Source: Verrucomicrobiota bacterium
Lineage (GTDB): Bacteria; Verrucomicrobiota; Verrucomicrobiia; Limisphaerales; JAXMHQ01
NCBI GenBank assembly: GCA_046346665.1
Contig: JAXMHQ010000030.1
Location: forward strand, 747-64,746
Reading direction: 5' to 3'
DNA length: 64,000 nucleotides
Below are positions 27,369 to 44,500 of the stretch, in pieces (positions within the stretch are counted from its first letter, which is position 1; every line of letters begins with the position of its first letter). Under the pieces are notes generated by a model, which did not search any database, was not told where the DNA came from, and saw only the letters and a list, made by a program, of their open reading frames with translations. Both the position numbers and the translations under genes were made by a program.

Positions 27369-27391
27369 GATCGCAGTTTTATTTCGTGTGC

Positions 27392-27426
27392 AAAATCCGC
27401 CGGTTCACGCCGGCGGATTTTTTTCT
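27392..27426 (+). terminator. Rho-independent terminator after fusA
   Basis: ATCCGCCGG, loop ttcacg, CCGGCGGAT, then a T8 run. Confidence 0.8.
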
Positions 27427-27433
27427 TCTGAAT

Positions 27434-27587: not shown

Positions 27588-27597
27588 GTTTCGGGCA

Positions 27598-28816: not shown

Positions 28817-28870
28817 GTTTCGGGCACGAGCCCTATTGACACGCCACGCCCCCCGGCGCATCTTCTGCGC

Positions 28871-29425
28871 ATGAACACCCTGTTGATTTTCGCGGCGATG
28901 CTTTGCCTTCCGATGGCGGCGCTCCAGGCGGCCGAGTCCACCAATTCCATTTACAACATTCCCCTGAAGGACATTGACGGGAAGGACACGACGCTGGCGC
29001 CCTACCGGGGCAAGGTGTTGCTGCTCGTGAACGTGGCTTCCAAGTGCGGTTACACGCCGCAGTACGCGGGGCTGGAGAAACTTTACAAGCAATACGCGGC
29101 GGAGGGATTCGTCGTGCTCGGTTTTCCGTGCAACCAGTTTGGCGGGCAGGAACCGGGATCGGCCGCGGACATCAAGCAGTTTTGCACGAGCAAATACGAC
29201 GTGACGTTCCCGATGTTCGACAAGATTGAGGTGAACGGGGCGGGGCAAAGCCCGTTATACGCCCTGCTCACCGGCAAAAGTTCGCCTGCACCGGGATCGA
29301 TCGGCTGGAATTTCACCAAGTTTCTGATCAGCAAGGACGGGAAGATCGTGAAGCGGTTTGAGTCCAAAGTGACTCCGGAATCGCCGGAGTTGACCGCGGC
29401 GATCCAGGCGGAGTTGAAGAAGTAA
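28871..29425 (+). CDS. gpx: Glutathione peroxidase (Cys-type), with signal peptide
   Basis: LLLVNVASKCGYTPQY, FPCNQFGGQEPG, WNFTKFLI. The active-site codon is TGC (Cys), not TGA. Confidence 0.85.
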   Translation: MNTLLIFAAMLCLPMAALQAAESTNSIYNIPLKDIDGKDTTLAPYRGKVLLLVNVASKCGYTPQYAGLEKLYKQYAAEGFVVLGFPCNQFGGQEPGSAADIKQFCTSKYDVTFPMFDKIEVNGAGQSPLYALLTGKSSPAPGSIGWNFTKFLISKDGKIVKRFESKVTPESPELTAAIQAELKK

Positions 29426-29430
29426 TCCTT

Positions 29431-29610
29431 GGGAGGGCCGGCGTCCTCGCCGGCCCCAATATCCGTTTGATGCGATATGCCGACGCAAGCGGTGCGCGAA
29501 GCGGATCAGATGGGGACGGCGGGGACGCCGTCCCTCCCGGTCTCTGGCGAGGGCTCGACGGAGTCTCGCCCCACCTTTGTCCCTTGATGATCCGTGTCAT
29601 CCGCGGTTAA
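29431..29610. repeat. Family-A 108-bp element followed by C' and B' half-modules
   Basis: GGGAGGGCCGGCGTCCTCGCCGGCCC...GGGGACGGCGGGGACGCCGTCCCTCCC (29431-29538; same termini as 17081-17188, different core). Then GAGGGCTCGACGGAGTCTCGCCCCACC and GATCCGTGTCATCCGCGGTTAA. Confidence 0.85.
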
Positions 29611-29651
29611 ACCGGGCTTCTTCGCGGTTCCAATTTGGTGAAAAAATCTTG

Positions 29652-29679
29652 TTGCGCGGATTTCTGCGGTTGCTATATT
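29652..29679 (+). promoter_or_regulatory. Candidate promoter of the S10 (rpsJ) operon
   Basis: TTGCGC, 16-nt spacer, TATATT. It shares GGATTTC...TTG.TATATT.CGCG with the rpsL candidate promoter. Confidence 0.55.
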
Positions 29680-29747
29680 TCGCGTCCGCTTTTCGGGTAA
29701 GAACTGCGGGACGTTAGCTAGACCATTAACAGACAATTGTTCTTTCT

Positions 29748-30056
29748 ATGGCAGGACAACGAATTCGTATTCGACTGAAGGCCTTTGACCACCGGGTCAT
29801 TGACCAATCCGCCCGCGATATTGCGGACACGGTGAAACGGACCGGGGCGCGTGTGGCGGGTCCGATTCCGCTTCCCACCCGAGTGGAACGCTTCACGGTT
29901 CAACGCTCTCCCCACTCCGACAAGAAGTCGCAGGAGACATTCGAGCAGCGCACGCACAAGCGGCTGATCGACATCATCGAACCCACCGCCAAGACCGTGG
30001 ATGAGCTGAAGAAGCTCAACCTGCCGGCGGGCGTCGACATCACCATCAAGATTTAG
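29748..30056 (+). CDS. rpsJ: 30S ribosomal protein S10
   Basis: [23 protein letters not shown]......GA.V.GPIPLPT. Confidence 0.95.
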
Positions 30057-30061
30057 CGCTT

Positions 30062-30787
30062 ATGCCACTTGGACTTTTAGGAAAGAAACTGGGCCATTCG
30101 CGCGTTTACGATGCGAACGGCATCATGACCCCGGTGACGATCGTCCTGGCCGGGCCCAATCGCGTGTTGCAGGTCAAGACGCAGGCGGGCAAGGACGGCT
30201 ACAATGCCGTTCAACTCGGCTTCGACGATCAGAAGGAACAGCGGCTGACCAAGCCGTTGCTGGGCCACATCAAGAAGCACAGCGGCGTCGCGGTGAAGCG
30301 GATCCAGGAGTTCCGGAATTTTTCGAAGGAAGTGAAGCCGGGCGACGTGGTGGGTCCGACGTTGTTTGAGGTCGGTGATTTTGTGGATGCGATCGGCGTG
30401 ACGAAGGGCCGCGGGTTTGAGGGCGTGGTGGGCCGGCACTCGTTTGCGGGCGGCGACTCCACGCACGGCGCGAAGGGCTGGCATCGCCGGTCCGGCGCCA
30501 TCGGCCAGCGCCTGTTCCCCGGCACCGTCATGCGCGGCATGCGCATGCCCGGTCACATGGGCCAGGTGCGCCGCACCACCCAGAATCTCCAGGTCATCCA
30601 GGTTCGCGAGGCTGAAAACCTGCTGCTGATCAAGGGCTCCATTCCCGGCGCCGAAGGCGATTACGTCGTGATCCGCGAATCCAAGAAACGTCCGAAGGGC
30701 TGGAAGCCGCCGACGTCGAATGCGGGCAAGAAGCTGAAGGGCGGGGATGCGAAGCCCGCTGCGAAACCCGCGGAGGCAAAGAAATAA
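30062..30787 (+). CDS. rplC: 50S ribosomal protein L3
   Basis: MPLGLLGKKLGHSRVYD...GVTKGRGFEGVVGRH.F.GG..THG, with a Lys/Ala-rich tail. Confidence 0.95.
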   Translation: MPLGLLGKKLGHSRVYDANGIMTPVTIVLAGPNRVLQVKTQAGKDGYNAVQLGFDDQKEQRLTKPLLGHIKKHSGVAVKRIQEFRNFSKEVKPGDVVGPTLFEVGDFVDAIGVTKGRGFEGVVGRHSFAGGDSTHGAKGWHRRSGAIGQRLFPGTVMRGMRMPGHMGQVRRTTQNLQVIQVREAENLLLIKGSIPGAEGDYVVIRESKKRPKGWKPPTSNAGKKLKGGDAKPAAKPAEAKK

Positions 30788-30852
30788 CGAGGTGACGGCG
30801 CCGCATTTGGCGCCGTGCCGGGACGGCGAAGCCGTTTCACCAGGTAACTGCC

Positions 30853-31485
30853 ATGAAGATTGCGATTAAAGACATTAAAGGAAACAGCCAGGGCGAGCTG
30901 GACGTGAAGTTCCCGGTCATTGAGGACGGGAAGGGCACGCAGGCCGTTCATGACGCGGTGGTGGCCTACCAGGCCGCGCAGCGGATGGGCACGGCTTGCA
31001 CCAAGACGATGGGCGAAGTGGCCGGCAGCGGCAAGAAGCCGTGGCGCCAGAAGGGCACCGGCCGCGCGCGCGCCGGTTCGTTCGCCTCGCCCCTGTGGCG
31101 CGGCGGCGGCGTGACGTTCGGTCCGAAACCCCGCGATTTCACAAAGAAGATCAACATCCGCACCCGCGAACTCGCGCTGCGCAAAGCGCTCAGCGAGCGT
31201 TTGAAGGCGGGCGACGTTTTGGTGGTGGACGATTTCAAGCTGGGCTCGCCCAAGACGCGCGAGTTCGCCGGCGTTCTCGCCGCGCTCCAGCTCACCGGCA
31301 CCGCGCTGATCGTGGCGCACGAAGCCAACAAGAATCTCACCCTCGCCTCCCGCAATCTTCCGAACGTGTTCCTCGCGACGAGCGAGACGCTGAACACCTA
31401 CGACGTGTTGCGGCCGGACAAGGTCGTGTTCACCCGCAGCGCCTTCGAGAAAGTCGAGTCGCGCCTGGCCAAGCCGCAGAAGTAA
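30853..31485 (+). CDS. rplD: 50S ribosomal protein L4
   Basis: ...SGKKPWRQKGTGRARAGS..SPLWRGGGVTFGPKPRDF.... Confidence 0.95.
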   Translation: MKIAIKDIKGNSQGELDVKFPVIEDGKGTQAVHDAVVAYQAAQRMGTACTKTMGEVAGSGKKPWRQKGTGRARAGSFASPLWRGGGVTFGPKPRDFTKKINIRTRELALRKALSERLKAGDVLVVDDFKLGSPKTREFAGVLAALQLTGTALIVAHEANKNLTLASRNLPNVFLATSETLNTYDVLRPDKVVFTRSAFEKVESRLAKPQK

Positions 31486-31512
31486 ACGGCCCCGCAACCA
31501 TCGAAGAATTCC

Positions 31513-31794
31513 ATGAATAGCTTTGAAATCATCAAGACCGTGCGCCTGACGGAAAAAGGCACGCGCCAGGCCGAGAACTTCAACCAGTACACCGTGGTGG
31601 CCGATCCGCGCGCGAACAAGACCCAGATCCGCCAGGCGGTCCAGGAACTGTTCAAGGTCAAGGTCGTCAAGGTCAATACCCTGAACGTTTCCGGCAAAGA
31701 CCGCCGCCGCCGCACCCCGCAGGCCGGCCAGACGAACGATTGGAAGAAAGCCATCGTGACGCTCAAGGAAGGCGACAAGATCACGCTCGCGTAA
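31513..31794 (+). CDS. rplW: 50S ribosomal protein L23
   Basis: IIKTVRLTEKGT......YTVVADPRANKTQIRQAVQELFKVKV..VNT. Confidence 0.95.
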   Translation: MNSFEIIKTVRLTEKGTRQAENFNQYTVVADPRANKTQIRQAVQELFKVKVVKVNTLNVSGKDRRRRTPQAGQTNDWKKAIVTLKEGDKITLA

Positions 31795-31815
31795 TCGCGT
31801 CTCCAGAAAGAATTC

Positions 31816-31842
31816 AAAGGCCGGCTCCGCCGGCCTTTTTTG
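31816..31842 (+). terminator. Rho-independent terminator directly after rplW
   Basis: GGCCGGC, loop tcc, GCCGGCC, then a T6 run. rplB does not follow. Confidence 0.8.
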
Positions 31843-31849
31843 TTTGTAA

Positions 31850-31950
31850 CGCAGGCCGCCTGGCCTGCCGTATCGCCGACCGCCGGTCGGCGCTGCCGCG
31901 CAACGACGCGGGCTGGGCAGCCTGCGACACGGCGGGCCAGGCGGCCTGCG
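31850..31950. repeat. 16-bp perfect inverted repeat pair with an internal palindrome
   Basis: CGCAGGCCGCCTGGCC (31850-31865) pairs with GGCCAGGCGGCCTGCG (31935-31950). The inner palindrome is CGCCGACCGCCGGTCGGCG. Confidence 0.75.
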
Positions 31951-32007
31951 CTACAGGGCGCGCGCGACTCTTGCCATCTCCGGCGCCGGGTTCTGGTGGC
32001 TCCGCGC

Positions 32008-32349
32008 ATGCACGAGCTTTCGATCATGGAAGGCGCCCTCAGCCTGGCGATGGAACAGGCCCGCGCCGCGGGCGCCGGAAAGATCCTGTCGCTCCGGCTC
32101 CGGGTCGGCGCGCTAAGCGGCGTGGTCCCGGACGCCCTCACCTTCGCCTTCGAAGCCTTGTCCGCCGGCACACCCGCGGAAGGCGGACAACTCATCATCG
32201 AAGCTGTCCCCGCCCAGTTCTGGTGCGAGAGCTGTGGCCGTGCCTTCGAGGCGGACGCCCTCAACGCCATTTGCCCCGCCTGCGGCAAGCACAGCAGCGA
32301 CCTGCGCAGCGGCCAGGAGTTGCAGGTCGTGTCCATGGAAGTGGAATAA
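32008..32349 (+). CDS. hypA: Hydrogenase nickel-insertion protein HypA
   Basis: MHELSIMEGAL... N-terminus and a C-terminal zinc site CESCG...CPACG. The track start at 31840 was rejected because it runs through repeat sequence. Confidence 0.85.
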   Translation: MHELSIMEGALSLAMEQARAAGAGKILSLRLRVGALSGVVPDALTFAFEALSAGTPAEGGQLIIEAVPAQFWCESCGRAFEADALNAICPACGKHSSDLRSGQELQVVSMEVE

Positions 32350-32608: not shown

Positions 32609-34498
32609 ATGAATCTCCTGCTTGCCCTCATCCTGCTCCCGTTTCTCGCCGGTGCCGTTCTGTTTTTTGTCCGATCCGACCTGCTCCGGCGCGTCCTGGT
32701 CGGCGGGGTGGTTGCGGCGGTCTGCTTCCTCTCCATCGTGCTGGCCATGCAGCCGGTTCCGATGAACCTGTCGGAAATTCCCGTCAGCCGTCACGCATTG
32801 AACCTGGGAATGCTCGGGGTGGAACTCGCGATGGCGCTTTACGTGGTATTGGTCGGGCTCCGATGGAAGCGTCCGTTGATCGTGCTGCTGATGGTGCTGC
32901 AGGCGGGGGTGATGACGTGGTTCGAATGGACGCAAGGCGGCAAACTGGAGGCGGGGAACGATCTTTTTGTCGACAAGTTTTCGGTGATCATGGCGTTGAT
33001 CAACGGGATTGTGGGTGGCGGTATTTGCCTGTATGCGCTGGGTTACATGCGGGAATACCACGAGTCGGCCCACTCGGACGTGCCGGACCGGCGCCCGCTG
33101 TTCTTTGCGCTGCTGTTTGTGTTCATGGGCGCGATGTTCGGCCTGGTGTTTGCCAATAATCTTACGTGGCTCTTTTTGTTCTGGGAGATGACCACGCTGT
33201 GTTCGTTCCTGCTGATTGGTTACACGAAGACAAAGGAAGCCCGGCGCAACGCGCAGCGCGCGCTTGTGATGAACCTGGCGGGCGGACTCGCCTTTGCCCT
33301 GGCGATCGTCTGGCTGCAACGCCAGGCGGGAACCATCGAATTGCAGGCGCTGATCGGATCCGAAAAATCCCTCGTGCTGCTGCCCGCCGTGTTGCTCTGC
33401 TTCGCGGGAATTACAAAATCCGCCCAACTGCCGTTCTCGAGCTGGCTGCTGGGCGCGATGGTGGCCCCGACGCCGGTGTCGGCGCTGCTGCATTCGAGCA
33501 CAATGGTGAAGGCGGGTGTTTACCTCGTCCTGCGCATGGCCCCGGTGGTCACCGGCACGCGCGCGGGCATGATGGTCGCCCTGGTCGGCGCCGTGACCTT
33601 CGTGGTGGGATCGCTGGCCGCCATCACCGCGAGCGACGCCAAGCGCGTCCTGGCCTGGTCCACCGTGGCGAATCTCGGCCTGATCGTCCTGTGCGGCGGG
33701 ATCGGCACTGCGGAAGCCGTCTGGGCGGGCGTGCTGATGATCATTTTTCACGCCCTGGCGAAGTGCCTCCTGTTTCTCTGTGTCGGGGTGGTGGAACACA
33801 AGATTCACAGCCGCGACATCGAATCGATGTGCGGCCTGGTGGCGCGCATGCCGCGGGTGGCGGTGATGATGTTGATCGGGATGGCGGGCATGTTCCTCGC
33901 GCCGTTTGGCATGTTGATCAGCAAATGGGCGGTGTTGAAGGCCGTGGTGGACGCCAGCCCGATGATGTCGGTGTTCATCGTCTTCGGCAGTTCGGCCACG
34001 TTGTTTTTCTGGGTGAAATGGATGGGCAAACTCCTGGAAGCCGGCGACTCGCCCGAGCGGATCCGCCATGAACTCGTCCTCGGCGAATCCATCGCGCTCT
34101 ACGGCCTGGCGGCGGCGACGTTCCTGGCGTGCCTGTTGTTCCCGCTGATCTCGGCCCGGCTGATCGTGCCCTACGTCGACGCCGTCTACGGCCAGTCCGC
34201 CACGCTGGCGCAGGGGAACGTTTACATCATGACCGCCATGATGGTGCTGGTGATGCTGTTCCCTGTCACCCTGCTGCGCATGGGCAGGGGCGTGCGGGTC
34301 ACCGATGCGTATCTCGGCGGCGCGAACGTCAGGGGTAACACCGGATTCCTCGGCTCCGCCAACCAGGTCCAGGCCGTGTCCATCGGCAATTATTATCTCG
34401 GCTCGCTGCTCAGTGAATCCTGGCTGTCGCGCTGGGGCGTGATCGGCTGCGCCGCGCTGCTGGCCGTGATGCTGGCGATGGCGATGAAACTTTTATGA
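32609..34498 (+). CDS. echA: Ech-type hydrogenase membrane subunit A (NuoL/HyfB-like antiporter subunit)
   Basis: 629 aa, polytopic. NLTWLFLFWEMTTLCSFLLIGY and ...SALLHSSTMVKAGVYL... motifs of the NuoL/Mrp family. First gene of a six-gene set with Ech subunit sizes. Confidence 0.8.
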   Translation: MNLLLALILLPFLAGAVLFFVRSDLLRRVLVGGVVAAVCFLSIVLAMQPVPMNLSEIPVSRHALNLGMLGVELAMALYVVLVGLRWKRPLIVLLMVLQAGVMTWFEWTQGGKLEAGNDLFVDKFSVIMALINGIVGGGICLYALGYMREYHESAHSDVPDRRPLFFALLFVFMGAMFGLVFANNLTWLFLFWEMTTLCSFLLIGYTKTKEARRNAQRALVMNLAGGLAFALAIVWLQRQAGTIELQALIGSEKSLVLLPAVLLCFAGITKSAQLPFSSWLLGAMVAPTPVSALLHSSTMVKAGVYLVLRMAPVVTGTRAGMMVALVGAVTFVVGSLAAITASDAKRVLAWSTVANLGLIVLCGGIGTAEAVWAGVLMIIFHALAKCLLFLCVGVVEHKIHSRDIESMCGLVARMPRVAVMMLIGMAGMFLAPFGMLISKWAVLKAVVDASPMMSVFIVFGSSATLFFWVKWMGKLLEAGDSPERIRHELVLGESIALYGLAAATFLACLLFPLISARLIVPYVDAVYGQSATLAQGNVYIMTAMMVLVMLFPVTLLRMGRGVRVTDAYLGGANVRGNTGFLGSANQVQAVSIGNYYLGSLLSESWLSRWGVIGCAALLAVMLAMAMKLL

Positions 34499-35352
34499 GC
34501 CCCTGGATGCGATTGCTGCTGTATCTCGTGGCCGCCCCCGTGGTGGGCGGCGTGCTGGCGGGCTGGGACCGGCGCATCACCGCGCGGATGCAATCGCGCC
34601 AGGGTCCGCCCATCCTGCAGCCGTTCTACGATGTCTGGAAACTCTGGCACAAGGAAACCCTGGTCGTCCGGCGCTCGCAGAATTTTTACATCGGCTTCTT
34701 CCTGCTCCTCGTGATCTTCACCGGCGCGCTTTTCTTCGCCGGGTCCGACCTGCTCCTGGTGATTTTCGCGCTGACGCTGGCGGCGATCTTCTTCGTCCTG
34801 GGCGCCTACACGGCCAGTTCGCCGTACAGTTTCATCGGGGCGGAACGCGAATTGATCCAGATGATGGCCTACGAACCGATGGTGCTGCTGACGGCGATCG
34901 GGATGTACATGGTGACGAAAAGTTTCGCGGTGGACGACATCGCGAGCCACCCGGGTTTGCTAGTGCTGGCGTTGCCGGGAATCTTCCTGGGTTTTCTCTA
35001 CACGCTGGAGATCAAGTTCCGCAAATCGCCGTTCGACCTCTCGTCGTCGCACCACGCGCACCAGGAGTTGGTGAAGGGGATCACGACCGAGTTTTCCGGG
35101 CGCGCGCTGGCGATGATCGAGGTGGCGCACTGGTATGAGAACGTGTTTTTGCTGGGCTGGATTTACCTGTTCTTCGCGTCGGTGCCGGCGCTGGGCGTGG
35201 CGGTGTCGCTCGCGGTGTTCGGGTTTGTGATCCTGGTGGACAACGTGTTTGCGCGGCTCAAGTGGCAGACGGCGCTGAAGAGCGCGTGGCTGGTGGCGGC
35301 CGTGCTTGGTTTTGGAAACATCCTGGTTCTTTCACTGCTGCATCCCCGCTGA
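34495..35352 (+). CDS. echB: Ech hydrogenase membrane subunit B (NuoH/HycD-like)
   Basis: GWDRRITARMQSRQGPPILQPFYDVWKL motif. ATGA overlap with echA. Confidence 0.8.
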   Translation: MSPWMRLLLYLVAAPVVGGVLAGWDRRITARMQSRQGPPILQPFYDVWKLWHKETLVVRRSQNFYIGFFLLLVIFTGALFFAGSDLLLVIFALTLAAIFFVLGAYTASSPYSFIGAERELIQMMAYEPMVLLTAIGMYMVTKSFAVDDIASHPGLLVLALPGIFLGFLYTLEIKFRKSPFDLSSSHHAHQELVKGITTEFSGRALAMIEVAHWYENVFLLGWIYLFFASVPALGVAVSLAVFGFVILVDNVFARLKWQTALKSAWLVAAVLGFGNILVLSLLHPR

Positions 35353-35355: not shown

Positions 35356-36330
35356 ATGTCCGGATTCTCCAAATCACCCTGGATCATTCACTACGACGCT
35401 TCGAGCTGCAACGGGTGCGACATCGAGACGCTGGCGTGCCTGACGCCGATGTTCGACGTGGAACGGCTGGGCGTGGTGAACACGGGCAACCCGAAGCACG
35501 CCGATATTTTCCTCGTCACCGGCGCGGTGAACGAACAGAGCCGCGATGTGATCCGGAATATTTACCACCAGCTTCCCGAGCCCAAGGTGGTGATCGCGGT
35601 CGGGATCTGCGCCGCCACGGGCGGCATCTTCGCCGAGTGCTACAACATCTCCGGCGGCGTGGACAGCGTGATCCCGGTGGATGTCTACGTGCCGGGCTGC
35701 GCTGCGCGGCCGGAGGCGATCATCGACGGGGTGGTGCAGGGCCTCGGCGTGCTGGAACGCAAGCAGAAGGAGATGGAGGCGATCAAGAACTCGCTCGACA
35801 AGGTGCAATACCAGCGCGCGTCGAAGTCGGATGCGCCTGAGATCCTCGCGTTGCAGAAGATCGCCTACCGCACCGAGGAGGAAATTTACGGGCCGGACAG
35901 CCTGCCGGCGATGGTGCAGACGCTGGAGGATCTGGAAAATGAATTCGATCGCCGTCCCGACCGCGAGGCGCACGTGCTCGGCGCGCGCGGCAGCCAGGGC
36001 GACGTGGCGGGCGACCCGGATCATTTCGTGTTTTTGAAAGCCGTGGTGAACGGAAAGATCATCGGGGCCGTGCGCGGTTTCGTGGTGGAAGACACCGCCT
36101 ACCTGAGCCGCGTGATTGTGCATCCGTATTTCCGGAACCGCGGGATCGGGCGGCGGCTGACGGAGGAGATCGAGAAGGCGTTTGCGAAGACGGCGCGGTT
36201 CGAGATCTTCACGGGGCACCGGAGCGAATCGAATTTGCGCCAGTTCAAGAAGCTCGGCTATTCCGAATTCAAGACGGAACCTTTCACGCCCGCGATCACG
36301 TGGGTTTACCTGGAGAAACGACGGTCATGA
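35356..36330 (+). CDS. echC: Ech hydrogenase small subunit (NuoB-like) fused to a C-terminal GNAT N-acetyltransferase domain
   Basis: The first ~135 aa carry SCNGCDIE...GICAATGG...VPGCAARPE (NuoB/EchC 4Fe-4S ligands). The last ~170 aa carry GNAT features, including motif A HPYFRNRGIGRRL. Single uninterrupted frame. ATGA overlap with echD. Confidence 0.75.
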   Translation: MSGFSKSPWIIHYDASSCNGCDIETLACLTPMFDVERLGVVNTGNPKHADIFLVTGAVNEQSRDVIRNIYHQLPEPKVVIAVGICAATGGIFAECYNISGGVDSVIPVDVYVPGCAARPEAIIDGVVQGLGVLERKQKEMEAIKNSLDKVQYQRASKSDAPEILALQKIAYRTEEEIYGPDSLPAMVQTLEDLENEFDRRPDREAHVLGARGSQGDVAGDPDHFVFLKAVVNGKIIGAVRGFVVEDTAYLSRVIVHPYFRNRGIGRRLTEEIEKAFAKTARFEIFTGHRSESNLRQFKKLGYSEFKTEPFTPAITWVYLEKRRS

Positions 36331-36707
36331 GCGAATCCATCGAAATCATCCCCATGGAATCCCTGCGGGAGCGCGCCCGTGGTTTCCGCGAGCAGGGCTG
36401 GCGGCTGGTGCAGATCAGCGCGACGCGGCTGCCGGACCAGGTGGAGCTGACTTACAGTTTCGACCGCGGGGGCGAGATGAAGAACCTGCGGTTTTCCGCG
36501 GCGCCGGTGGAGACGCGGGTGCCGAGCATCAGCCCGGTTTACGGCTGTGCGATTCTTTACGAGAATGAAATCCACGATTTGTTCAACGTGCAGGTGGAGG
36601 GGTTGACGGTGGATTTCAAAGGCAACCTTTACAAGACCGCGATCAAGTTTCCGTTCGGCTCCACGAAGGCGCCCTGCGCGAAACCGGCCGGCACGGCGGC
36701 TTCCTGA
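36327..36707 (+). CDS. echD: Ech hydrogenase subunit D (short NuoC-like)
   Basis: About 126 aa. ...ELTYSF......LRFS........PSISPVY..A...ENEIHDLF.V resembles the 30-kDa/NuoC core. Confidence 0.7.
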   Translation: MSESIEIIPMESLRERARGFREQGWRLVQISATRLPDQVELTYSFDRGGEMKNLRFSAAPVETRVPSISPVYGCAILYENEIHDLFNVQVEGLTVDFKGNLYKTAIKFPFGSTKAPCAKPAGTAAS

Positions 36708-36712: not shown

Positions 36713-37789
36713 ATGGCACGCACCGTCATTCCCTTCGGCCCCCAGCACCCGGTCCTGCCGGAACCCATCCACCTCGACCTCGTCGTCGAGGACGAAAAGG
36801 TCGTCGAGGCGCGGCCGTCGATCGGGTTCATCCACCGCGGCCTCGAGCAGCTTGCGGAGAAAAAGGATTACGTGGAGTTCGTGTATGTCGCCGAGCGCAT
36901 CTGCGGCATCTGCAGTTTCATTCACGGGCAGACCTATTGCCAGGGGGTGGAGACGCTGATGAACATCGCGGTGCCGCCCCGCGCGCTTTACCTGCGCACG
37001 ATCTGGGGCGAACTGTCGCGGCTGCACAGCCACCTGCTCTGGCTCGGGCTGATGGCAGACGGCATGGGGTTCGAAAGCCTGTTCATGCACTCGTGGCGCG
37101 TCCGCGAGCGCATCCTCAACATCATCGAAGCCACCACCGGCGGCCGCGTCATCTTCGGCTCCTGCAAAGTCGGCGGCGTGCGGCGCGACCTCGATGCCGA
37201 CATGCTCAAGGCGCTGCCCGCCGAACTGGATGGAATCGAGAAGGACATGCGCGAGATCGTGAAGGTGTTCCTCGACGACAATTCCGTGAAAGCCCGCCTG
37301 TGCGGCGTCGGGGTGCTGACAAAGGACGAAGCCTACGACCTCGGTTGCGTGGGGCCGATGCTCCGGGCCAGCGGCGTGTCGCAGGACATGCGCAGCCTGG
37401 GCTACGCGGCGTTCAAGGACATCCCCGTCGAGCCGGTGGTGCGCACGGAAGGTGATTCCTATGCGCGGTGCGCAGTGCGTTGCGAGGAGTTGTTCCAGTC
37501 GGTCGCCATCATCCGCAAAGCGCTGGCCGCGCTGCCCGCCGGCGAGATCGCCGTCAAGGTCGCCGGCAATCCCACCGGCGAAACCATCACGCGCACCGAA
37601 CAGCCCCGCGGCGAAGTGGTGTATCACCTGAAAGCCAACGGATCGAAAAACCTCCAGCGTTTCCGCGTCCGCACCCCGACGTTCGCCAATCTGCCGGCAA
37701 TGCTGAAGGTGCTGCCGGGCTGCGAACTGGCCGATGTCCCGATGATCGTTCTCACCATCGACCCCTGCATCAGTTGCACGGAAAGGTAA
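36713..37789 (+). CDS. echE: [NiFe]-hydrogenase large subunit, group 4 (EchE/NuoD-like)
   Basis: N-terminal metal-site motif RICGICS and C-terminal DPCISCTER. 358 aa, the same size as EchE. Confidence 0.9.
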   Translation: MARTVIPFGPQHPVLPEPIHLDLVVEDEKVVEARPSIGFIHRGLEQLAEKKDYVEFVYVAERICGICSFIHGQTYCQGVETLMNIAVPPRALYLRTIWGELSRLHSHLLWLGLMADGMGFESLFMHSWRVRERILNIIEATTGGRVIFGSCKVGGVRRDLDADMLKALPAELDGIEKDMREIVKVFLDDNSVKARLCGVGVLTKDEAYDLGCVGPMLRASGVSQDMRSLGYAAFKDIPVEPVVRTEGDSYARCAVRCEELFQSVAIIRKALAALPAGEIAVKVAGNPTGETITRTEQPRGEVVYHLKANGSKNLQRFRVRTPTFANLPAMLKVLPGCELADVPMIVLTIDPCISCTER

Positions 37790-37790: not shown

Positions 37791-38120
37791 ATGGGCTATT
37801 TCGAAATGTCCCGGCTGGCATTGAAGTGGGCGCTCACAAAGCCCCCGACGAGCCGCTATCCCTTTGAACCGCGCAAAGCGATCACCGGATCGCGCGGCCA
37901 GCTTATCTTCACCAAGGACGGCTGCGTCTACTGCAACGTCTGCGCGAAAAAATGCCCCACCGGCGCCCTGACCATCAATCGCGCCCAGAAAAAGTGGATG
38001 ATCGACCGCCTTCGCTGCATCACCTGCGGCTATTGCGTCGAAGCCTGCCCGAAAAAATGCCTCGAACTCGGCACCGGCCATGGAAATCCGGCCGTGACAA
38101 AGGACCGGGAAATCCACTGA
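37791..38120 (+). CDS. echF: Ech hydrogenase 2x[4Fe-4S] ferredoxin subunit (NuoI-like)
   Basis: CVYCNVCAKKCP and CITCGYCVEACP. Confidence 0.85.
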   Translation: MGYFEMSRLALKWALTKPPTSRYPFEPRKAITGSRGQLIFTKDGCVYCNVCAKKCPTGALTINRAQKKWMIDRLRCITCGYCVEACPKKCLELGTGHGNPAVTKDREIH

Positions 38121-38121: not shown

Positions 38122-38259
38122 CGCGGAATGCGCCATTCCGCACTCCGCATTCCGCACTTGAAGGTGGGGCGAGACTCCGTCGAGCCCTCTCTGAGATTTC
38201 AAATTTGAAATTTGAGATTTCACATCTAAAGTCAGGGCTCGACGGAGTCTCGCCCCACC
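38122..38259. repeat. Module string E - C - D - C'
   Basis: GCGGAATGCGCCATTCCGCACTCCGCATTCCGCACT. Then AAGGTGGGGCGAGACTCCGTCGAGCCC. Then TGAGATTTCAAATTTGAAATTTGAGATTTCAC. Then AGGGCTCGACGGAGTCTCGCCCCACC. Confidence 0.9.
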
Positions 38260-38350
38260 GCCTGCAAAAGCCTTCTTGATCTTCCACGATCTCAACGTTA
38301 GAATCGCTTCTCAACAACGCCCGGCGCATTGCCGGGTTCACTGACGTGTT

Positions 38351-39772
38351 ATGAGCGAAACACCGGTCGCCAGATCCACCAAGTACGCCTGGAGCGATGT
38401 TCCGCGAGTCGAACCCCCCAAGCGTCCGGCCTCGAATCGTGTCGCGGATTTTCACCGGGTTGAGATTCCCTACGATGAAGAGACGGCGAGCGTGCAGGCG
38501 AGCCGGTGCATTTTGTGTCCGACGCCGGTGTGCGTGGCGTGTTGTCCGCTGGAAGCGCCGTTGGTGGAACTGCTGCGGCTGACGGCGGACCGCCAGTTCA
38601 CCGAGGCGGCCGAGTTGTTTTTCGCGAGTCACAACATTCCCGAGATTGCCTCGCACACGTGCCTGGGTGGACGCCAGTGCGAGCGGGTTTGCGTGCTGGG
38701 CGACAAGACGGATCCCGTCCCGGTGCGGGCGATCACGCGGTTCCTGCTCGATTACGGATGGAAACACGGGCTGGCCGAACCGGCGGTGGCTCCGTCGAAG
38801 GAACAATCCGTCGCGGTGCTGGGTTCCGGCATCGGCGGCCTGGTGGCGGCCGATGAATTATCGCGTCGGGGCTACGAGGTGACGGTGTTTGATTCGAGGC
38901 GCAACCCGGGCGGGCGGATGATGAACGGGCTGCCGGGATTCCGGATGGACACGGAGTTGGTGAAGCGCCGGATTGAACTGTTGAAGCAGCGGGGCATCCG
39001 GTTTCGGATGGGTGTGAATTTCGGGCAGGAAGTGAAGCTGTCGGATTTGCGCGGTCAATTCGACGCGGTGTTCCTGGGATTCGGGCGGGCGGAACCGGTG
39101 CCGCTGGACATTCCGGGCGGGCAATTGAAAGGGGTTCACGACGCGTATGCGTTCATGGCGGGGGACGCGTGCATCGATGAACCGGCCGTGGGCGTCGAGG
39201 TGCGCGGCAAACGCGTGGTGGTGCTCGGCGCGGGAGACACGGCGATGGATGCCTTGCGCATGGCGATCCGTTACGGCGCGGCAGAGGCGGTGTGTGTGTA
39301 TCGACGCGACAGCGCCAACCTGCCGGCCGATGCCGAGGAATACGCCAATGCGGTCGAGGAAGGCGCGCGCTTTCTTTTCCTGAGCCAGCCGGTGGCCCTG
39401 CTGGGCAGCCCATCCGGCCGGGTCAACGCCATCCGCTGCCGCCGCGTGGAACTTGTGACCGACCCGGGAGCGCTCCGGCCCGAGGCGCGGTCGCTGCCGG
39501 ACGCCGATTTTGAAATTCCGGCCGACGTCGTGCTGGTGGCCTACGGCTTCACCGCGCCGCGGCTCCCGGCGTTCGACGATTTTCAACGCGTCACCGCCGA
39601 CGCCCAGGGGCGCGTCGAGGTGGACGAGAATCGCATGACCAGTTTGCCGGGTGTGTTCGCGGGCGGATCACTCGTGCGCGGCCCCGTGCCGCTGGTGGAA
39701 GTGGTCCGGGACGCGCGCAATGCAGTCGCGTCCATGGATCGCTACCTGAAAACCCGCCGGGCGGCCCCGTGA
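38351..39772 (+). CDS. GltD/NfnB/SudA-like NAD(P)H-dependent FAD oxidoreductase with N-terminal Fe-S clusters
   Basis: CILCPTPVCVACCP and CLGGRQCERVC Cys clusters. Dinucleotide folds VAVLGSGIGGLVAA and VVVLGAGDTAMDA. Length and order as in the glutamate synthase small chain. Confidence 0.8.
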   Translation: MSETPVARSTKYAWSDVPRVEPPKRPASNRVADFHRVEIPYDEETASVQASRCILCPTPVCVACCPLEAPLVELLRLTADRQFTEAAELFFASHNIPEIASHTCLGGRQCERVCVLGDKTDPVPVRAITRFLLDYGWKHGLAEPAVAPSKEQSVAVLGSGIGGLVAADELSRRGYEVTVFDSRRNPGGRMMNGLPGFRMDTELVKRRIELLKQRGIRFRMGVNFGQEVKLSDLRGQFDAVFLGFGRAEPVPLDIPGGQLKGVHDAYAFMAGDACIDEPAVGVEVRGKRVVVLGAGDTAMDALRMAIRYGAAEAVCVYRRDSANLPADAEEYANAVEEGARFLFLSQPVALLGSPSGRVNAIRCRRVELVTDPGALRPEARSLPDADFEIPADVVLVAYGFTAPRLPAFDDFQRVTADAQGRVEVDENRMTSLPGVFAGGSLVRGPVPLVEVVRDARNAVASMDRYLKTRRAAP

Positions 39773-41421: not shown

Positions 41422-41535
41422 GAATTGTTTTCATGCTAATCCACAACTCTGAGAAACGATCAGGATTCATTCGGGGTGGGGATGGCTTTCATTAAAGCTT
41501 TGACCAAATCGCATGCAATTGCTAAAGAAGGGCTC

Positions 41536-44500
41536 ATGCATCCGTGGAGGCGAGATTCTTCTTATTCGCGCTGGCTGTATCTCCTTTTGTTCTGCTTTGG
41601 GCTCGGACGACCGGGGTCGGCGGAAATTCTGCCGGGCGCGGTGCATGGCTGGGGACAATACGTTACGAACGGCAGGCCTGTGGGGCTTGGGGACGTGATT
41701 GATGTCAAGGCGGCTTACCGTTATTCCGCCGCGTTAAGGGCAAACGGCACGGTGGCCATATGGGGTGACGACAGTTCCGGCCGGCCCGTCGCGCCTGCGA
41801 ACGCGACGAACGTGACCGCGATCTCGGCGGGTTCTTCAATGGTCATGGCTCTGATGTCGGACGGCCGCGTCCAGGTCTGGGGAAATCCCAATTACGTGGA
41901 TGCCGGAACTCTGACCAATGTTCCGGCCGGTGCGACCAATGTGATCGCCGTCGCGGCCGGGACGGATCATTGCCTGGCGTTGAGAGGGGACGGAACTTTG
42001 GTGGCTTGGGGGAGCAATTTCTGGAGTAACTGGGGACAGACGGACGTGCCGGCGGCGGCCACCAACGTCTCCCTGATAGCGGCGGGGGAATCCTATAACC
42101 TGGTCCGCAGGTTGGACGGTTATCTCATGGCTTGGGGCGACACGAATCACTATGGACCAATTCCGGCGAATGCGACCAACCTGACGGCCCTGGCACTGGG
42201 TCCGTATGGAAACGTGCTGGCCTTGAAACCGGACGGCACGGTGCTCGCCTGGGGCAACAGCCCCTCAGGACAGACCAATCTTCCCGCTGGCTTGACGAAC
42301 GTGGTTTCGATCGCTTGCGGCGATTCGCATTGCGCAGCCTTGCGCGCGGATGGAACCCTGGTGCTCTGGGGAGGGAACAGTTACGGCCAGACGACAATTC
42401 CGACCAACCTCTTCCGGTTCCGGGCCGTTGCGTGCGGGGCCAAACACACCGTGGCCATGAGCGGCGCGCCGCTCGTGGACGGCATCGCTCCCGAGGAACA
42501 GGGCGTGCTGGCCGGCGATCCGGCGATGTTCCAGGCCTCTGTCGCGTCAACCGATCCCTGGGCCGGTCAATGGTTCAAGGACGGCGTGCCCATCGCCGCC
42601 ACCAACGCGCTGCTCACGTTGTCCGACCCGCAGTCGGCCGATTCCGGCGAGTATACGTTCACCGCCACCAACCAGTTTGGATTCACCGTGAGCGACTTTG
42701 CGTACTTGGGCGTCAACGGATCGGCCGTGCGATGGGTGGCCCAGCCATCCAACCAGGCAGCTTTGCCGGGACAACCCGCCTCCTTTACCGCGACGGTGGC
42801 CGGGTCCGAGCCGATGCGATACCAGTGGCTGCACAACGGTGCTCCCATCCCGGGCGCCACGAATGGTACCCTGTTGATTCCGTCCGTGGCGCCTGCGGAT
42901 GAAGGGACCTATACGGTGACGGTCACGAATGTTCTTGGCGGAGTCGTCAGCGCCCCGCGTTATCTCGCGGTCACCCTTCCATTTTTCCTGACAGCGCCTT
43001 CGGACATTCGCGCGCGGACAAACTGGGATGTCTCGATCACGACCGGCGTGCTGAGCCCGACGCCGGTGAGTTACGCCTGGTACAAGGACGGGGTGCAGCT
43101 CACGAATGAAACCGGTCCCAGCCTGCGCTTTGCATCCTTGCAGGAAAGCGACGCCGCGGATTATGTCCTGGTGGCTGCCAACGACGCAGGGTCGGTCACT
43201 AATCCTCCGGTGCATGTCACGGTGCTTCCGAGTTACATTGTCCCCGCCGAACCCGGCGTGGTGGTGAACTGGGGAAATATCACGCCTTACGCAAATTACA
43301 CAGCTCTTAAGAATGCCACGAATGCCGTTTCCATCGGAACCGGCTTATGGCATCTGCTGGCCTCGTGGCCGGACGGCACGGTCAGCATTTGGGGCGACCC
43401 GTCTGACTTGACGCTCATGAGCATACCGCCGGAGACGACCAACGTGGTCAGTGTCATTGGCGGTCAGCATTACAGCCTGGCGATTCGCCGGGATGGCACG
43501 ACCGTGGTCTGGGGCGTGCCGCCGTTCAGCGCAGGTGCGCCGGTGCCGACCACGACGAATGTGATGTCGGCCGCCCTCGGGCCGAATCATATCATGTACC
43601 TGCGGCGGGACGGCTCGGTCATGAGTTTTCCGTATGTCACGCCGCCCAATGTGACAAACATCGTGGCGGTGGGCGCGACCGATTTCTACTCGTTTGCGCT
43701 GCGGGCGGACGGCCGGATTTTGATCTGGCTGGCCTATCAGAATGTGAATACCAACGGGCCTCCGGCGGCGGAGCTGCCGGGCGTGACGAATGCCGTGAGC
43801 GTAACGGGGGGGGAGAACTACAGGGTGGCCGCTCTCCTGAAGGACGGCGGCGCCATTACGATTGCCGTTGCCACGGGCTCCCAGTCCTGGACCCCGATGG
43901 CGGGCATCAGCAACGCAGTGCAAGTCGCTGCCGGCCGCGGTTATGCCGCGCTGCTGGCCACGGGAGAAGTGTCGGCGGGGGGCGATTCGAGCATTCTCCC
44001 GGTGCCGAACGGGTTGCGGGCGCACCAGATTTCCGGTGGTCTGCTGCAGGTCGCGGCGCTGACGGTCGCGCCGTTTTTTGACGTGCAGCCCCAGTCTCAA
44101 ACGCTCTCCGCCGGGAGTGCCATGACGTTGTCCCCGATCGTCCGCAGTGCGTCAGCCTGCTCGTTTCAATGGTATTACCAGGGCAATCCGGTTCCGAACG
44201 CCACCAACAGTCTCTTCAGCCTGGCGCAAGTCCGCCCGAGCCAGGGAGGCACCTACCAGCTTCTCGCCACCAACCCGCGCGCCCAGACCTGGAGCGTGCC
44301 GGCAACGATTACTGTTCAGGGACTGGCGGAGATCCTGACACTGTCCAGCAACCAGTTCCTGCTGGCCGGCGACACGCTGAACCTGGGAGCAACTTATGTG
44401 GCGAATCCAAGTGCCAGCCTGCAATGGAAGTTCAACAATTTTTCAATCCTGGGGGCTACCAATGCCACCCTCACGCTCACCGGCATGACCGAGGCCATGA

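What the first reader, a model, noticed from the sequence alone, without database searches (positions are those of the whole stretch)
35356..36330. Hydrogenase small subunit EchC fused in-frame to a GNAT acetyltransferase domain
The N-terminal ~135 residues are a complete NuoB/EchC-type [4Fe-4S] subunit (CNGC, GICAATGG, VPGCAARPE). The ORF then continues without a stop through a linker (LERKQKEMEAIKNSLDK). It runs into a ~170-aa domain with GNAT features, including acetyl-CoA motif A (RNRGIGRRL). It ends in an ATGA overlap with echD, so the fusion is integrated into the operon's translational coupling. I know of no described Ech/Hyc/complex-I-type module carrying an acyltransferase on the electron-transfer subunit. 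The domain could link hydrogenase activity to acetyl-CoA status or acetylate a partner subunit.
Basis: partly seen in the sequence, partly recalled or inferred. Interest (0 to 1): 0.66.

Follow-up and report, generated by a model that had tools for sequence, protein, structure and literature searches.

The report
Ech hydrogenase subunit carrying a GNAT domain
The iron-sulfur subunit of an energy-converting hydrogenase really is fused to an acetyl-CoA-binding acetyltransferase-type domain, and the fusion is conserved across several bacterial phyla, yet I found no paper describing it, so it may link hydrogen production to acetyl-CoA metabolism.

Summary
ORF 35356-36330 (324 aa) is one uninterrupted gene encoding a NuoB/EchC [4Fe-4S] domain (aa 1-132), a helical linker and a GNAT domain (aa ~151-324). 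It sits inside a canonical hypA-echABCDEF operon and overlaps echD by ATGA.

It is not an artefact. Contigs from four runs cross the junction unchanged. All 120 best database homologues carry both domains. 33 species-level genomes carry the fusion, 32 as complete ORFs; by record title they span Verrucomicrobiota, Kiritimatiellia, Lentisphaerae, Planctomycetota, Omnitrophota, Spirochaetota and Fibrobacterota.

Ech phylogeny suggests a single origin, with one clean secondary deletion in a Lacunisphaera (L034). The GNAT half is under purifying selection and keeps the acetyl-CoA P-loop. In the window's clade, however, the motif-B Tyr (the usual general acid) is replaced by F/L/M/V.

The closest relatives of the GNAT half are uncharacterised small YpeA/RimI-like GNATs, and the substrate is unknown. 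I read it as a dispensable, cytoplasm-facing, acyl-CoA-binding accessory module of Ech; a regulatory link to acetyl-CoA is inferred, not shown.

I found no description in the searchable literature. Automatic annotations either ignore the domain or, in some NCBI records, annotate only the GNAT half. Verdict: new variant of a known kind.

The parts
31816..31838 (+). Terminator-like hairpin after rplW (L23). It separates the ribosomal genes from the hypA-ech unit.
   Evidence: 10-bp stem with 7 GC pairs, followed by a T-run
32008..32349 (+). hypA, the nickel metallochaperone for [NiFe] maturation
   Evidence: TIGR00100 hypA 98.9 bits against a cut-off of 88.1; Pfam HypA
32609..34498 (+). echA, NuoL/Mrp-antiporter-like membrane subunit
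   Evidence: Proton_antipo_M, E 4.6e-56
34495..35352 (+). echB, NuoH-like membrane subunit
   Evidence: NADHdh, E 3.6e-42
35356..36330 (+). echC-GNAT fusion gene, 324 aa plus stop
   Evidence: Single ORF; both Pfam domains above cut-off
35356..35751 (+). EchC/NuoB [4Fe-4S] domain, aa 1-132, with Cys ligands C18, C21, C85 and C115
   Evidence: PF01058 at aa 18-127. The four Cys are invariant in 33 fused sequences (the window plus 32 complete loci) and across the alignment of the window with 120 homologues. The closest solved homologues are MbhJ 6cfw_J (E 4e-44) and HycG 7z0s_G.
35752..35805 (+). Linker, aa 133-150, the C-terminal part of a long predicted helix (aa 119-144)
   Evidence: AF2 secondary structure H119-144, pLDDT about 55-78. 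dN/dS here is higher than in either domain. In L034 the GNAT deletion begins exactly here.
35806..36327 (+). GNAT domain, aa 151-324
   Evidence: Pfam Acetyltransf_1, _7 and _10. AF2 pLDDT 80-93. Foldseek probability 1.0 to many small GNATs, target-normalised TM 0.63-0.79.
35950..36030 (+). Variable, predicted-disordered insertion in the alpha2-beta2 loop, aa 199-225
   Evidence: Absent from the 299-303 aa orthologues. pLDDT below 50 for aa 203-221.
36133..36159 (+). Acetyl-CoA pyrophosphate-binding P-loop (motif A), R260-N-R-G-I-G-R-R-L268
   Evidence: Fits Q/R-x-x-G-x-G/A (consensus from PMC4964394). The pattern is kept in all 17 representative fused sequences printed, which cover every clade.
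36244..36246 (+). F297, at the motif-B position that is Tyr (general acid) in most relatives
   Evidence: Aligned to the Tyr of YpeA 'MYERLGY'. Tyr in 139 of 148 standalone representatives. F/L/M/V in 119 of 120 close homologues.
36327..36707 (+). echD, small NuoC-like subunit; its start overlaps the echC-GNAT stop (ATGA)
   Evidence: Complex1_30kDa, E 8.9e-07; sequence read directly
36713..37789 (+). echE, [NiFe] large subunit (NuoD-like)
   Evidence: Complex1_49kDa and NiFeSe_Hases. RICGICSFIH and DPCISCTER motifs are in the translation.
37791..38120 (+). echF, 2x[4Fe-4S] NuoI-like subunit
   Evidence: Fer4 family hits; TIGR01971 NuoI-like
38351..39772 (+). gltD/NfnB-like NAD(P)H oxidoreductase that often follows echF in Verrucomicrobiota; possibly functionally associated
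   Evidence: Fer4_20 and Pyr_redox_2. TIGR01318 scores 332 bits, below its cut-off of 483. Found in the same position in L005, L010, L011, L032 and L034. Promoter-like sites lie upstream at 38205-38304.

Best explanation
This is a genuine, anciently fixed domain fusion that defines a subclade of Ech-type (group 4e-like) energy-converting [NiFe] hydrogenases. The [4Fe-4S] subunit EchC continues through a roughly 25-residue helix into a small YpeA/RimI-like GNAT domain.

Shown: one ORF; conservation across several phyla; purifying selection on the GNAT half; an intact acyl-CoA P-loop; a confident GNAT fold; a clean loss in one lineage; and no GNAT at all in the sister Ech operons.

Inferred: the GNAT is a cytoplasm-facing, acyl-CoA-binding accessory module that acts on or through the Ech complex and is not part of the core catalytic machinery. 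The most likely mechanism couples Ech activity (reduced ferredoxin to H2) to the acetyl-CoA/CoA pool. That pool is produced together with reduced ferredoxin by pyruvate:ferredoxin oxidoreductase in fermenters of this kind.

In lineages that keep the motif-B Tyr, the coupling would work by acetylating a nearby protein amine, either on the peripheral arm or on the ferredoxin donor. In the window's lineage the Tyr is F/L/M/V while the rest of the domain stays constrained. There it would act more probably as a slow enzyme or a ligand sensor.

My confidence that the fusion is real and is a conserved acyl-CoA-binding accessory domain is about 0.95. The confidence given below is for the Ech-directed, acetyl-CoA-linked function.
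For: - Single ORF with both domains above curated cut-offs.
- No indel and no stop in four independent assemblies.
- All 120 best homologues (68-82% identity, full coverage) have PF01058 and PF00583.
- 33 GTDB species representatives carry the fusion inside echAB-C/GNAT-DEF; 32 are complete uninterrupted ORFs of 299-334 aa and one is cut by a contig end.
- In a concatenated EchB+C+E tree the fused operons plus L034 form one clade (bootstrap 65/100). L034 is sister to the other Lacunisphaera locus, so its lack of GNAT is a secondary, domain-precise deletion.
- GNAT dN/dS is 0.06-0.23 where dS is below 1, against 0.04-0.19 for EchC.
- The P-loop Q/R-x-x-G-x-G/A is kept in every clade examined (consensus from PMC4964394).
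- The GNAT fold is confident and matches solved GNATs.
- The Tyr is replaced without any relaxation of selection in the window clade. This favours selection for binding or structure over high turnover.
- No clearly free-standing member falls inside the fused GNAT clade. The apparent ones are fragments or calls that start in the linker.
- Unfused EchC orthologues have C-terminal tails of very variable length (144-289 aa), and E. coli HycG extends about 90 aa beyond the same point. The attachment site therefore tolerates appendages.
Against: - No experiment or direct computation shows acetyl-CoA binding, catalysis or contact with other Ech subunits.
- AlphaFold modelled the EchC half poorly, so the relative orientation of the domains is unknown.
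- No residue, and in particular no lysine, in EchC, D, E or F is specifically conserved in GNAT-carrying operons.
- The N-termini of the subunits do not differ in a telling way between fused and unfused operons.
- The alpha1-alpha2 'acceptor-face' motif (AYxSEAxxYxDxxxPxLxQT) is shared with standalone relatives from unrelated bacteria. This argues for a general acceptor and not an Ech-specific one.
- L034 lost the domain with no other visible change, so the role is dispensable.
- The loss of Tyr does not prove inactivity. Only about 62% of characterised GNATs use such a Tyr (PMC4964394), and the conserved S290 could substitute.
Confidence: 0.4

Rival explanations
1. The GNAT is an ordinary small-molecule or general protein acetyltransferase with no action on Ech. 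The fusion only secures co-expression or membrane-proximal localisation.
For: The closest relatives are hundreds of standalone GNATs of about 155 aa in many phyla: 737 representatives at E<=1e-10, and only 4 of the best 150 carry Oxidored_q6. They share the alpha1-alpha2 motif. There are no co-evolving residues in the Ech subunits. The domain is dispensable in L034.
Against: The fusion has been kept at the same junction, in the middle of a translationally coupled operon, across several phyla, and no clearly free copy is seen in the fused clade. The usual general-acid Tyr is lost in the window clade while purifying selection continues. That is odd for an enzyme selected for turnover. Genomic contexts of standalone relatives give no hint of a pathway.
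Confidence: 0.25
2. The GNAT is a purely structural or assembly 'pseudoenzyme' domain. It would stabilise the peripheral arm, much as enzyme-fold accessory subunits do in mitochondrial complex I, and ligand binding would play no regulatory part.
For: The Tyr is replaced by variable hydrophobic residues (F/L/M/V/C) in the window clade and some others. The domain hangs on a helix at the point where other group-4 small subunits carry non-enzymatic extensions.
Against: The P-loop and most subfamily-conserved residues (G263, G265, E273, S290, G301, Y302) stay conserved. The Tyr is retained in 14 of 33 fused sequences (window plus loci), among them Kiritimatiellia, Lentisphaerae, Planctomycetota and Omnitrophota. 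A clean deletion is tolerated in L034, and all sister Ech complexes lack the domain, so it is not needed for assembly.
Confidence: 0.2
3. The two halves are made as separate proteins. Either a stop codon was lost through a sequencing or assembly error, or translation restarts at the conserved linker Met (M140) to release a free GNAT.
For: NCBI annotates some orthologues as GNAT-only proteins of 194-195 aa starting at this Met. M140 is at least 90% conserved among close homologues. An AAGGAG sequence lies directly before that ATG.
Against: The error version is excluded by four independent assemblies and more than 150 intact orthologous ORFs. In L081 the 'GNAT-only' call sits inside an intact 333-aa ORF whose EchC half is simply left unannotated. 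The AAGGAG abuts the ATG with zero spacing, which is unfavourable for initiation. The Met position is not conserved in distant fused clades. Internal initiation in addition to the fusion product cannot be excluded.
Confidence: 0.05

Closest known systems
Ech hydrogenase (EchABCDEF), group 4e energy-converting [NiFe] hydrogenase of Methanosarcina and Thermoanaerobacter type
   Same: Same six-gene order and the same subunit families. EchC has four Cys for one [4Fe-4S] cluster, the large subunit has both Ni-Fe Cys motifs, and hypA is adjacent. Unfused EchC from Firmicutes and Methanomicrobiales is 72-78% identical to the window's EchC half.
   Different: Those EchC proteins end about 10-70 residues after the NuoB fold and have no GNAT, and no GNAT gene lies in those operons. 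Here a 175-aa GNAT is appended.
HycG of E. coli formate hydrogenlyase (PDB 7z0s_G) and MbhJ of Pyrococcus Mbh (6cfw_J)
   Same: These are the closest solved homologues of the EchC half (E 3.5e-36 and 4e-44). HycG also extends about 90 residues beyond the same C-terminal point.
   Different: I know of no acetyltransferase fold in the HycG extension; this rests on my own knowledge and I did not scan it. These complexes belong to other group-4 subtypes.
YpeA / RimI-like small GNATs (PDB 2pdo, 4qus, 4jwp, 5isv; also 2atr and RibT 5xxr)
   Same: These are the best sequence and fold matches to the GNAT half. They share the P-loop, and relatives share the Y-x-x-x-G-F/Y motif B.
   Different: Scores are far below the equivalog cut-offs: rimI 26.6 against 86.4, and YpeA NF002959 22.5 against 124. 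The window has Phe at the Tyr position. YpeA itself has no established substrate (my own knowledge).
Regulatory GNAT fusions such as Pat/YfiQ and the cAMP-dependent mycobacterial Pat (recalled from knowledge, not tested here)
   Same: A GNAT joined to another domain so that acetylation is tied to a metabolic signal or target.
   Different: In those proteins a sensor domain regulates the GNAT, and the targets are acyl-CoA synthetases. Here the GNAT is welded to a subunit of a respiratory-type complex. No homology beyond the GNAT fold was shown.
Enzyme-fold accessory subunits of complex I, for example NDUFA9 (SDR), the acyl-carrier protein and gamma-carbonic anhydrases (recalled from knowledge)
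   Same: The concept is the same: a domain with an enzyme fold recruited as an add-on to the conserved NuoB/D/I module.
   Different: Those are separate polypeptides in mitochondrial complex I. None is a GNAT and none is fused to the NuoB homologue.

Membership tests
NuoB/EchC small subunit (Pfam PF01058 Oxidored_q6; NCBIfam NF005012) | Profile match above the curated cut-off | tested here: met
   PF01058 scores 102.9 bits against 27. NF005012 scores 130.4 against 116.
NuoB/EchC small subunit | Four Cys ligands of the single [4Fe-4S] cluster | tested here: met
   C18, C21, C85 and C115 are invariant in 33 fused sequences (window plus 32 loci) and across the alignment of the window with 120 homologues.
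Ech-type (group 4e) energy-converting [NiFe] hydrogenase | Six-gene module in the order NuoL-like, NuoH-like, NuoB-like, NuoC-like, NuoD-like, NuoI-like | tested here: met
   The same order is seen in the related loci that are complete across the operon.
Ech-type (group 4e) energy-converting [NiFe] hydrogenase | Large subunit retains both Ni-Fe-binding Cys pairs (RxCGxCxxxH and DPCxxCxxR) | tested here: met
   ERICGICSFIHG and DPCISCTER are in the EchE translation. hypA is adjacent.
Ech-type (group 4e) energy-converting [NiFe] hydrogenase | Formal subgroup assignment (HydDB-type classifier or phylogeny with reference sequences) | not tested
   No classifier was available. The assignment rests on gene order, on JGI/KEGG-derived names ('ech hydrogenase subunit C') and on 72-78% identity to unfused six-gene Ech-type operons of Methanomicrobiales and Firmicutes.
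Ech-type (group 4e) energy-converting [NiFe] hydrogenase | Ferredoxin-dependent H2 evolution coupled to ion translocation | not testable with these tools
   Requires biochemistry.
GNAT superfamily | Profile match above the curated cut-off | tested here: met
   Acetyltransf_1 scores 44.4 against 20.7, Acetyltransf_7 scores 41.1 against 27, and Acetyltransf_10 scores 37 against 23.6. Distant fused orthologues also pass.
GNAT superfamily | GNAT alpha/beta fold | tested here: met
   AF2 pLDDT 80-93 for aa 151-324, apart from the insert. Foldseek probability 1.0 and target-normalised TM 0.63-0.79 to many solved GNATs.
GNAT superfamily | P-loop Q/R-x-x-G-x-G/A for the CoA pyrophosphate | tested here: met
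   R260-N-R-G263-I-G265. The pattern is kept in all 17 representative fused sequences printed, covering every clade. Consensus per PMC4964394.
GNAT superfamily (catalytic competence by the common mechanism) | Motif-B Tyr acting as general acid (StRimI Y115, PA4794 Y128) | tested here: not met
   The window has F297. Close homologues have F/L/M/V in 119 of 120 cases. Tyr is kept in 14 of 33 fused sequences and in 139 of 148 standalone representatives. This is not a superfamily-defining feature, since only about 62% of characterised GNATs use it.
GNAT superfamily | Acyl-CoA binding and acyl transfer | not testable with these tools
   Requires binding and activity assays.
RimI (TIGR01575 equivalog) | Score above the equivalog cut-off | tested here: not met
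   26.6 bits against a cut-off of 86.4.
YpeA-type GNAT (NF002959 equivalog) | Score above the equivalog cut-off | tested here: not met
   22.5 bits against a cut-off of 124. PDB YpeA matches at E 1.5e-5 over 82 residues only.

The most novel reading that the evidence does not exclude
A previously unrecognised class of 'acetyl-CoA-gated' energy-converting hydrogenases. In this reading the GNAT welded to EchC reads the acetyl-CoA/CoA ratio, or acetylates the ferredoxin donor or a peripheral-arm subunit. It thereby tunes electron flow from ferredoxin to protons. That would give PVC, Spirochaete and Fibrobacterota fermenters a direct feedback between pyruvate oxidation and H2 release. It would also be the first metabolite-sensing or modifying domain found built into the conserved NuoB module of the complex-I superfamily.
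Probability: 0.25. Interest if true: 0.8.

Novelty: new variant of a known kind. Interest (0 to 1): 0.58.

Why it matters
Ech-type hydrogenases are minimal relatives of respiratory complex I. They set the H2 and ferredoxin balance in anaerobic fermenters, syntrophs and methanogens, yet very little is known about how they are regulated after translation.

A GNAT domain that has stayed attached to the electron-transfer subunit across several phyla is a concrete, testable handle on such regulation. It points to acetyl-CoA, which is produced together with reduced ferredoxin by pyruvate oxidation.

The finding also has a practical side. Automatic annotation either hides the domain under 'ech hydrogenase subunit C' or 'NADH ubiquinone oxidoreductase 20 kDa subunit', or, in some NCBI MAG records, calls only the GNAT half and leaves EchC unannotated. 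The latter would make the operon look as if it lacked its small subunit.

Tried and rejected
1. Lost stop codon or misassembly: rejected.
2. Split genes in relatives: NCBI's 194-195 aa 'GNAT' proteins proved to be calls from an internal Met inside intact fusion ORFs. No locus has a separate GNAT gene.
3. Tethered N-terminal acetyltransferase: I compared the second residues of EchA-F between fused and unfused operons. There are only small, phylogeny-confounded shifts, for example EchE Met-Ala against Met-Gly. Inconclusive.
4. Dedicated acceptor lysine: no Lys or other residue in EchC, D, E or F is specific to GNAT-carrying operons, apart from two EchE positions (T74 and M114) that L034 also keeps. 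No signal.
5. Named family for the GNAT: NCBIfam gives only sub-threshold RimI, YpeA, PanM and ArsN2-like hits. PDB sequence and fold matches are generic.
6. Genomic context of the closest standalone relatives (P0129, P0138): uninformative.
7. GNAT-domain tree: all fused GNATs fall in one clade, but with only 10/100 bootstrap support on 149 columns. This is consistent with one origin but does not prove it.
8. Two AlphaFold runs (22 and 121 sequences): the GNAT half is confident and the EchC half poor (pLDDT 31-63), so nothing can be said about docking.
9. Metatranscriptome support: no RNA run was listed.
10. L036 has a 289-aa EchC with a different C-terminal extension that has no Pfam match, so it is not a diverged GNAT.
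11. PFOR or another ferredoxin-reducing enzyme close to the operon: none found among the window ORFs scanned.
Full report
**1. Observation.**
The window holds a single ORF at 35356-36330 (+ strand, 324 aa) with no internal stop. Pfam finds Oxidored_q6 (NuoB family) at aa 18-127 (102.9 bits, cut-off 27). It also finds Acetyltransf_1 at aa 211-302 (44.4 bits, cut-off 20.7), with Acetyltransf_7 and _10 above their cut-offs too. NCBIfam's NuoB subfamily model NF005012 is passed at 130.4 bits against 116.

These are CNGC, GICAATGG, VPGCAARPE, the linker LERKQKEMEAIKNSLDK, and RNRGIGRRL at nt 36133-36159. The TGA stop overlaps the ATG of the next gene (ATGA, 36327-36330).

The gene sits in a compact operon. 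The order is hypA (32008-32349), echA (NuoL-like), echB (NuoH-like), echC-GNAT, echD (NuoC-like), echE and echF (2x[4Fe-4S]). EchE is NuoD-like and carries the RICGICSFIH and DPCISCTER Ni-Fe ligand motifs. A strong terminator-like hairpin at 31816-31838 separates the operon from the ribosomal genes upstream.

**2. Not an artefact.**
The sequence occurs in activated-sludge and wastewater metagenomes. Contigs from four runs in three studies cross the domain junction (35740-35830) without indels or substitutions.

All 120 best hits in a database of 5.8 billion protein clusters are full-length (301-342 aa), 68-82% identical, and carry both Pfam domains.

In one-genome-per-species GTDB contigs, 33 loci (L001-L033) carry EchC followed in frame by GNAT inside echAB-C/GNAT-DEF. 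32 are complete uninterrupted ORFs of 299-334 aa, tightly packed against or overlapping echD. One (L031) is cut by a contig end.

By record title they come from:
- Verrucomicrobiota, including Limisphaerales and Lacunisphaera;
- Kiritimatiellia/Pontiellaceae;
- Lentisphaerae;
- Planctomycetota (Tepidisphaeraceae, Pirellulales, Planctomycetales);
- Omnitrophota;
- Spirochaetaceae;
- Fibrobacter and Chitinispirillaceae.

These are MAG labels, so individual assignments may be wrong. The distant members still pass both Pfam models.

**3. Evolution.**
Equally close EchC halves (72-78% identity) occur unfused in Firmicutes, Methanomicrobiales and others (L035-L080). Those proteins are 144-205 aa long (289 aa in L036, with a non-GNAT tail). 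None of these operons has a separate GNAT gene.

I built a neighbour-joining tree of concatenated EchB+EchC+EchE (763 columns). It places all fused operons plus L034 in one clade (bootstrap 65/100). L034 is sister to L010, and both are labelled Lacunisphaera.

L034 has no GNAT. Its EchC ends '...LEKKQKERAWVRN*' exactly where L010 continues '...LEKKQKEMAALASNLD...', and echD starts at once. The simplest history is therefore one fusion event, spread by descent and probably by operon transfer, and one domain-precise secondary deletion.

The GNAT-only tree agrees. All fused GNATs fall in one clade whose only other members are fused representatives, fragments or linker-start calls. It is poorly supported, though (10/100).

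**4. Selection and conserved chemistry.**
For pairs with unsaturated dS, GNAT dN/dS is 0.06-0.23 and EchC dN/dS is 0.04-0.19. The short linker evolves faster than either domain.

Across the 33 aligned fused sequences (the window plus the 32 complete loci), the invariant GNAT residues are A155, D159, Y178, K228 and G301. Many more are at least 90% conserved, including E174, Q167, R240, P257, G263, E273, S290, Y302 and K321.

The P-loop fits the GNAT consensus Q/R-x-x-G-x-G/A in every clade examined (consensus from PMC4964394). An insertion of about 25 residues (aa 199-225) is variable, absent from many orthologues and predicted to be disordered.

One feature departs from the norm. The motif-B Tyr (Y-x-x-x-G-F/Y) aligns with the Tyr of YpeA and of 2atr. 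It corresponds to the general acid described for StRimI Y115 and PA4794 Y128, whose Y128F variant is inactive (PMC4964394). The counts at this position are:
- Tyr in 139 of 148 standalone representatives;
- Phe in the window (F297);
- F/L/M/V in 119 of the 120 close homologues;
- Tyr in 14 of the 33 fused sequences with a residue there (window plus loci), among them loci labelled Kiritimatiellia, Lentisphaerae, Planctomycetota and Omnitrophota.

The rest of the domain is no less constrained in the Tyr-less clade. So selection there seems to act on binding or structure, or on a variant mechanism; the conserved S290 is a candidate. About 38% of characterised GNATs do not use such a Tyr, so inactivity is not proven.

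**5. What kind of GNAT is it?**
I searched the GNAT half alone against 1.84 billion representatives. It has 737 relatives at E<=1e-10. These are mostly standalone proteins of about 155 aa, or other fusions (double GNATs, methyltransferases, PRAI). Only 4 of the best 150 carry Oxidored_q6.

NCBIfam gives only sub-threshold RimI and YpeA-type hits. The PDB sequence and fold matches are generic small GNATs: YpeA, 2atr, RibT, RimI, PaiA, PA4794 and HP0935. The contexts of two standalone relatives are uninformative. The substrate therefore cannot be named.

**6. Structure.**
Two AlphaFold runs give a confident GNAT fold (pLDDT 80-93) joined to EchC by a long helix (aa 119-144). The EchC half is poorly modelled, which is expected without its cluster and partner subunits. 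The geometry between the domains stays open.

The closest solved homologues of the EchC half are MbhJ (6cfw_J) and HycG (7z0s_G). HycG itself extends about 90 residues beyond the same C-terminal point. Together with the variable tails of unfused EchC proteins, this shows that the attachment site tolerates appendages.

That the GNAT faces the cytoplasm is inferred, not shown. EchC belongs to the peripheral arm, and acyl-CoA is cytoplasmic.

**7. Mechanism.**
I commit to the following reading. The GNAT is a dispensable, acyl-CoA-binding accessory module that acts on or through Ech. It most likely couples ferredoxin-driven H2 evolution to the acetyl-CoA/CoA pool. In Tyr-bearing lineages it would do this by acetylating a nearby protein amine. 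In the window's lineage it more probably acts as a slow enzyme or sensor.

Confidence in this function is 0.4. Confidence that the fusion itself is real and is a conserved acyl-CoA-binding accessory domain is about 0.95.

The evidence against an Ech-specific target is real. No partner residues co-evolve, there is no N-terminal signature, and the acceptor-face motif is shared with standalone relatives.

The rivals are:
- an unrelated acetyltransferase that is merely co-expressed (0.25);
- a purely structural pseudoenzyme (0.2);
- separate products through an artefact or internal initiation (0.05; the artefact version is excluded).

**8. Novelty.**
Five full-text searches returned no paper describing a GNAT on EchC, NuoB or a hydrogenase small subunit. 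The search terms combined Ech hydrogenase, acetyltransferase and Verrucomicrobia; EchC and GNAT; hydrogenase small subunit and acetyltransferase domain; energy-converting hydrogenase and GNAT; and NuoB, N-acetyltransferase, fusion and hydrogenase. A sixth search (Ech hydrogenase with Kiritimatiell-) led to one paper that mentions Ech and an acetyltransferase only in unrelated passages.

The proteins are in public databases under automatic names. In some NCBI MAG records only the GNAT half is annotated, from an internal Met, and the EchC half of an intact ORF is left uncalled.

This is a new variant of a known system, not a new kind of system. It is moderately interesting in its own right. It would be considerably more so if a regulatory link between acetyl-CoA and an energy-converting hydrogenase were demonstrated.

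Noticed in passing
window 24184-32349: The ribosomal str/S10 gene region is broken up. S12-S7-EF-G (24184-27368) is followed by an IS-type DDE transposase (27680-28810) and a glutathione peroxidase (28871-29425). Then come S10-L3-L4-L23 (29748-31794), ending at a strong terminator-like hairpin (31816-31838). The next genes are hypA and ech, not L2-S19-L22 and the rest. None of the 80 related Ech loci has ribosomal genes within 8 kb, so the adjacency seems specific to this genome.
   Followed up: partly
window 38351-39772; L005, L010, L011, L032, L034: A gltD/NfnB-like NAD(P)H oxidoreductase (Fer4_20 and Pyr_redox_2; TIGR01318 at 332 bits, below its cut-off) directly follows echF in the window and in five loci of the Verrucomicrobiota-labelled group (52-64% identity). 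Promoter-like sites of its own lie at 38205-38304. It might connect Ech to NAD(P)H.
   Followed up: partly
L081 3584-4585 (GCA_035389725.1); proteins P0121, P0278: NCBI annotation of some MAGs calls only a 194-195 aa 'GNAT family N-acetyltransferase' from the linker Met. It leaves the EchC half of an intact 333-aa ORF unannotated, so the operon appears to lack its small subunit.
   Followed up: yes
L034 8001-8438: A Lacunisphaera MAG has a closely related Ech operon (EchC half 88% identical) from which exactly the GNAT module has been deleted. It is a natural 'delta-GNAT' control.
   Followed up: yes
L036 8001-8870; also L051, L052, L055, L062: Some unfused EchC proteins of Firmicutes and other lineages carry other C-terminal extensions with no Pfam domain (up to 289 aa in total; one has a weak coiled-coil hit). 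The EchC C-terminus seems to be a hot spot for appendages.
   Followed up: partly
window 55885-59433 and 61305-63334: A 1182-aa protein combines QrcB-like (molybdopterin-like, TAT-variant signal) and QrcC/DsrO-like Fe-S parts, which resembles ActB of alternative complex III. It is followed by a cytochrome-c-containing protein. This suggests the organism also respires, besides having a fermentative-type Ech.
   Followed up: partly
window 41476-46617 and 46628-49573: Two very large ORFs (1713 and 981 aa) have no NCBIfam hit. The 981-aa one has no Pfam hit either. By eye, the 1713-aa protein shows repeated RCC1-like 'WG.N..GQ' units and Ig-like repeats.
   Followed up: no
window 35950-36030 (aa 199-225): A low-complexity, predicted-disordered insertion in the GNAT alpha2-beta2 loop is present in the window and in many relatives of its clade. 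It is absent from the 299-303 aa forms, which include the window's nearest loci L001, L004 and L005.
   Followed up: partly
L032 1-2174: This Limisphaerales locus carries parts of a second, more distant group-4-like cluster just upstream of its fused Ech operon. The hits are EchE-, EchB-, EchF- and EchC-like at 31-44% identity.
   Followed up: no
window 9217-10914: A 565-aa protein has a GreA/GreB N-terminal domain only at its C-terminal end (aa 452-519). This is an unusual architecture.
   Followed up: no
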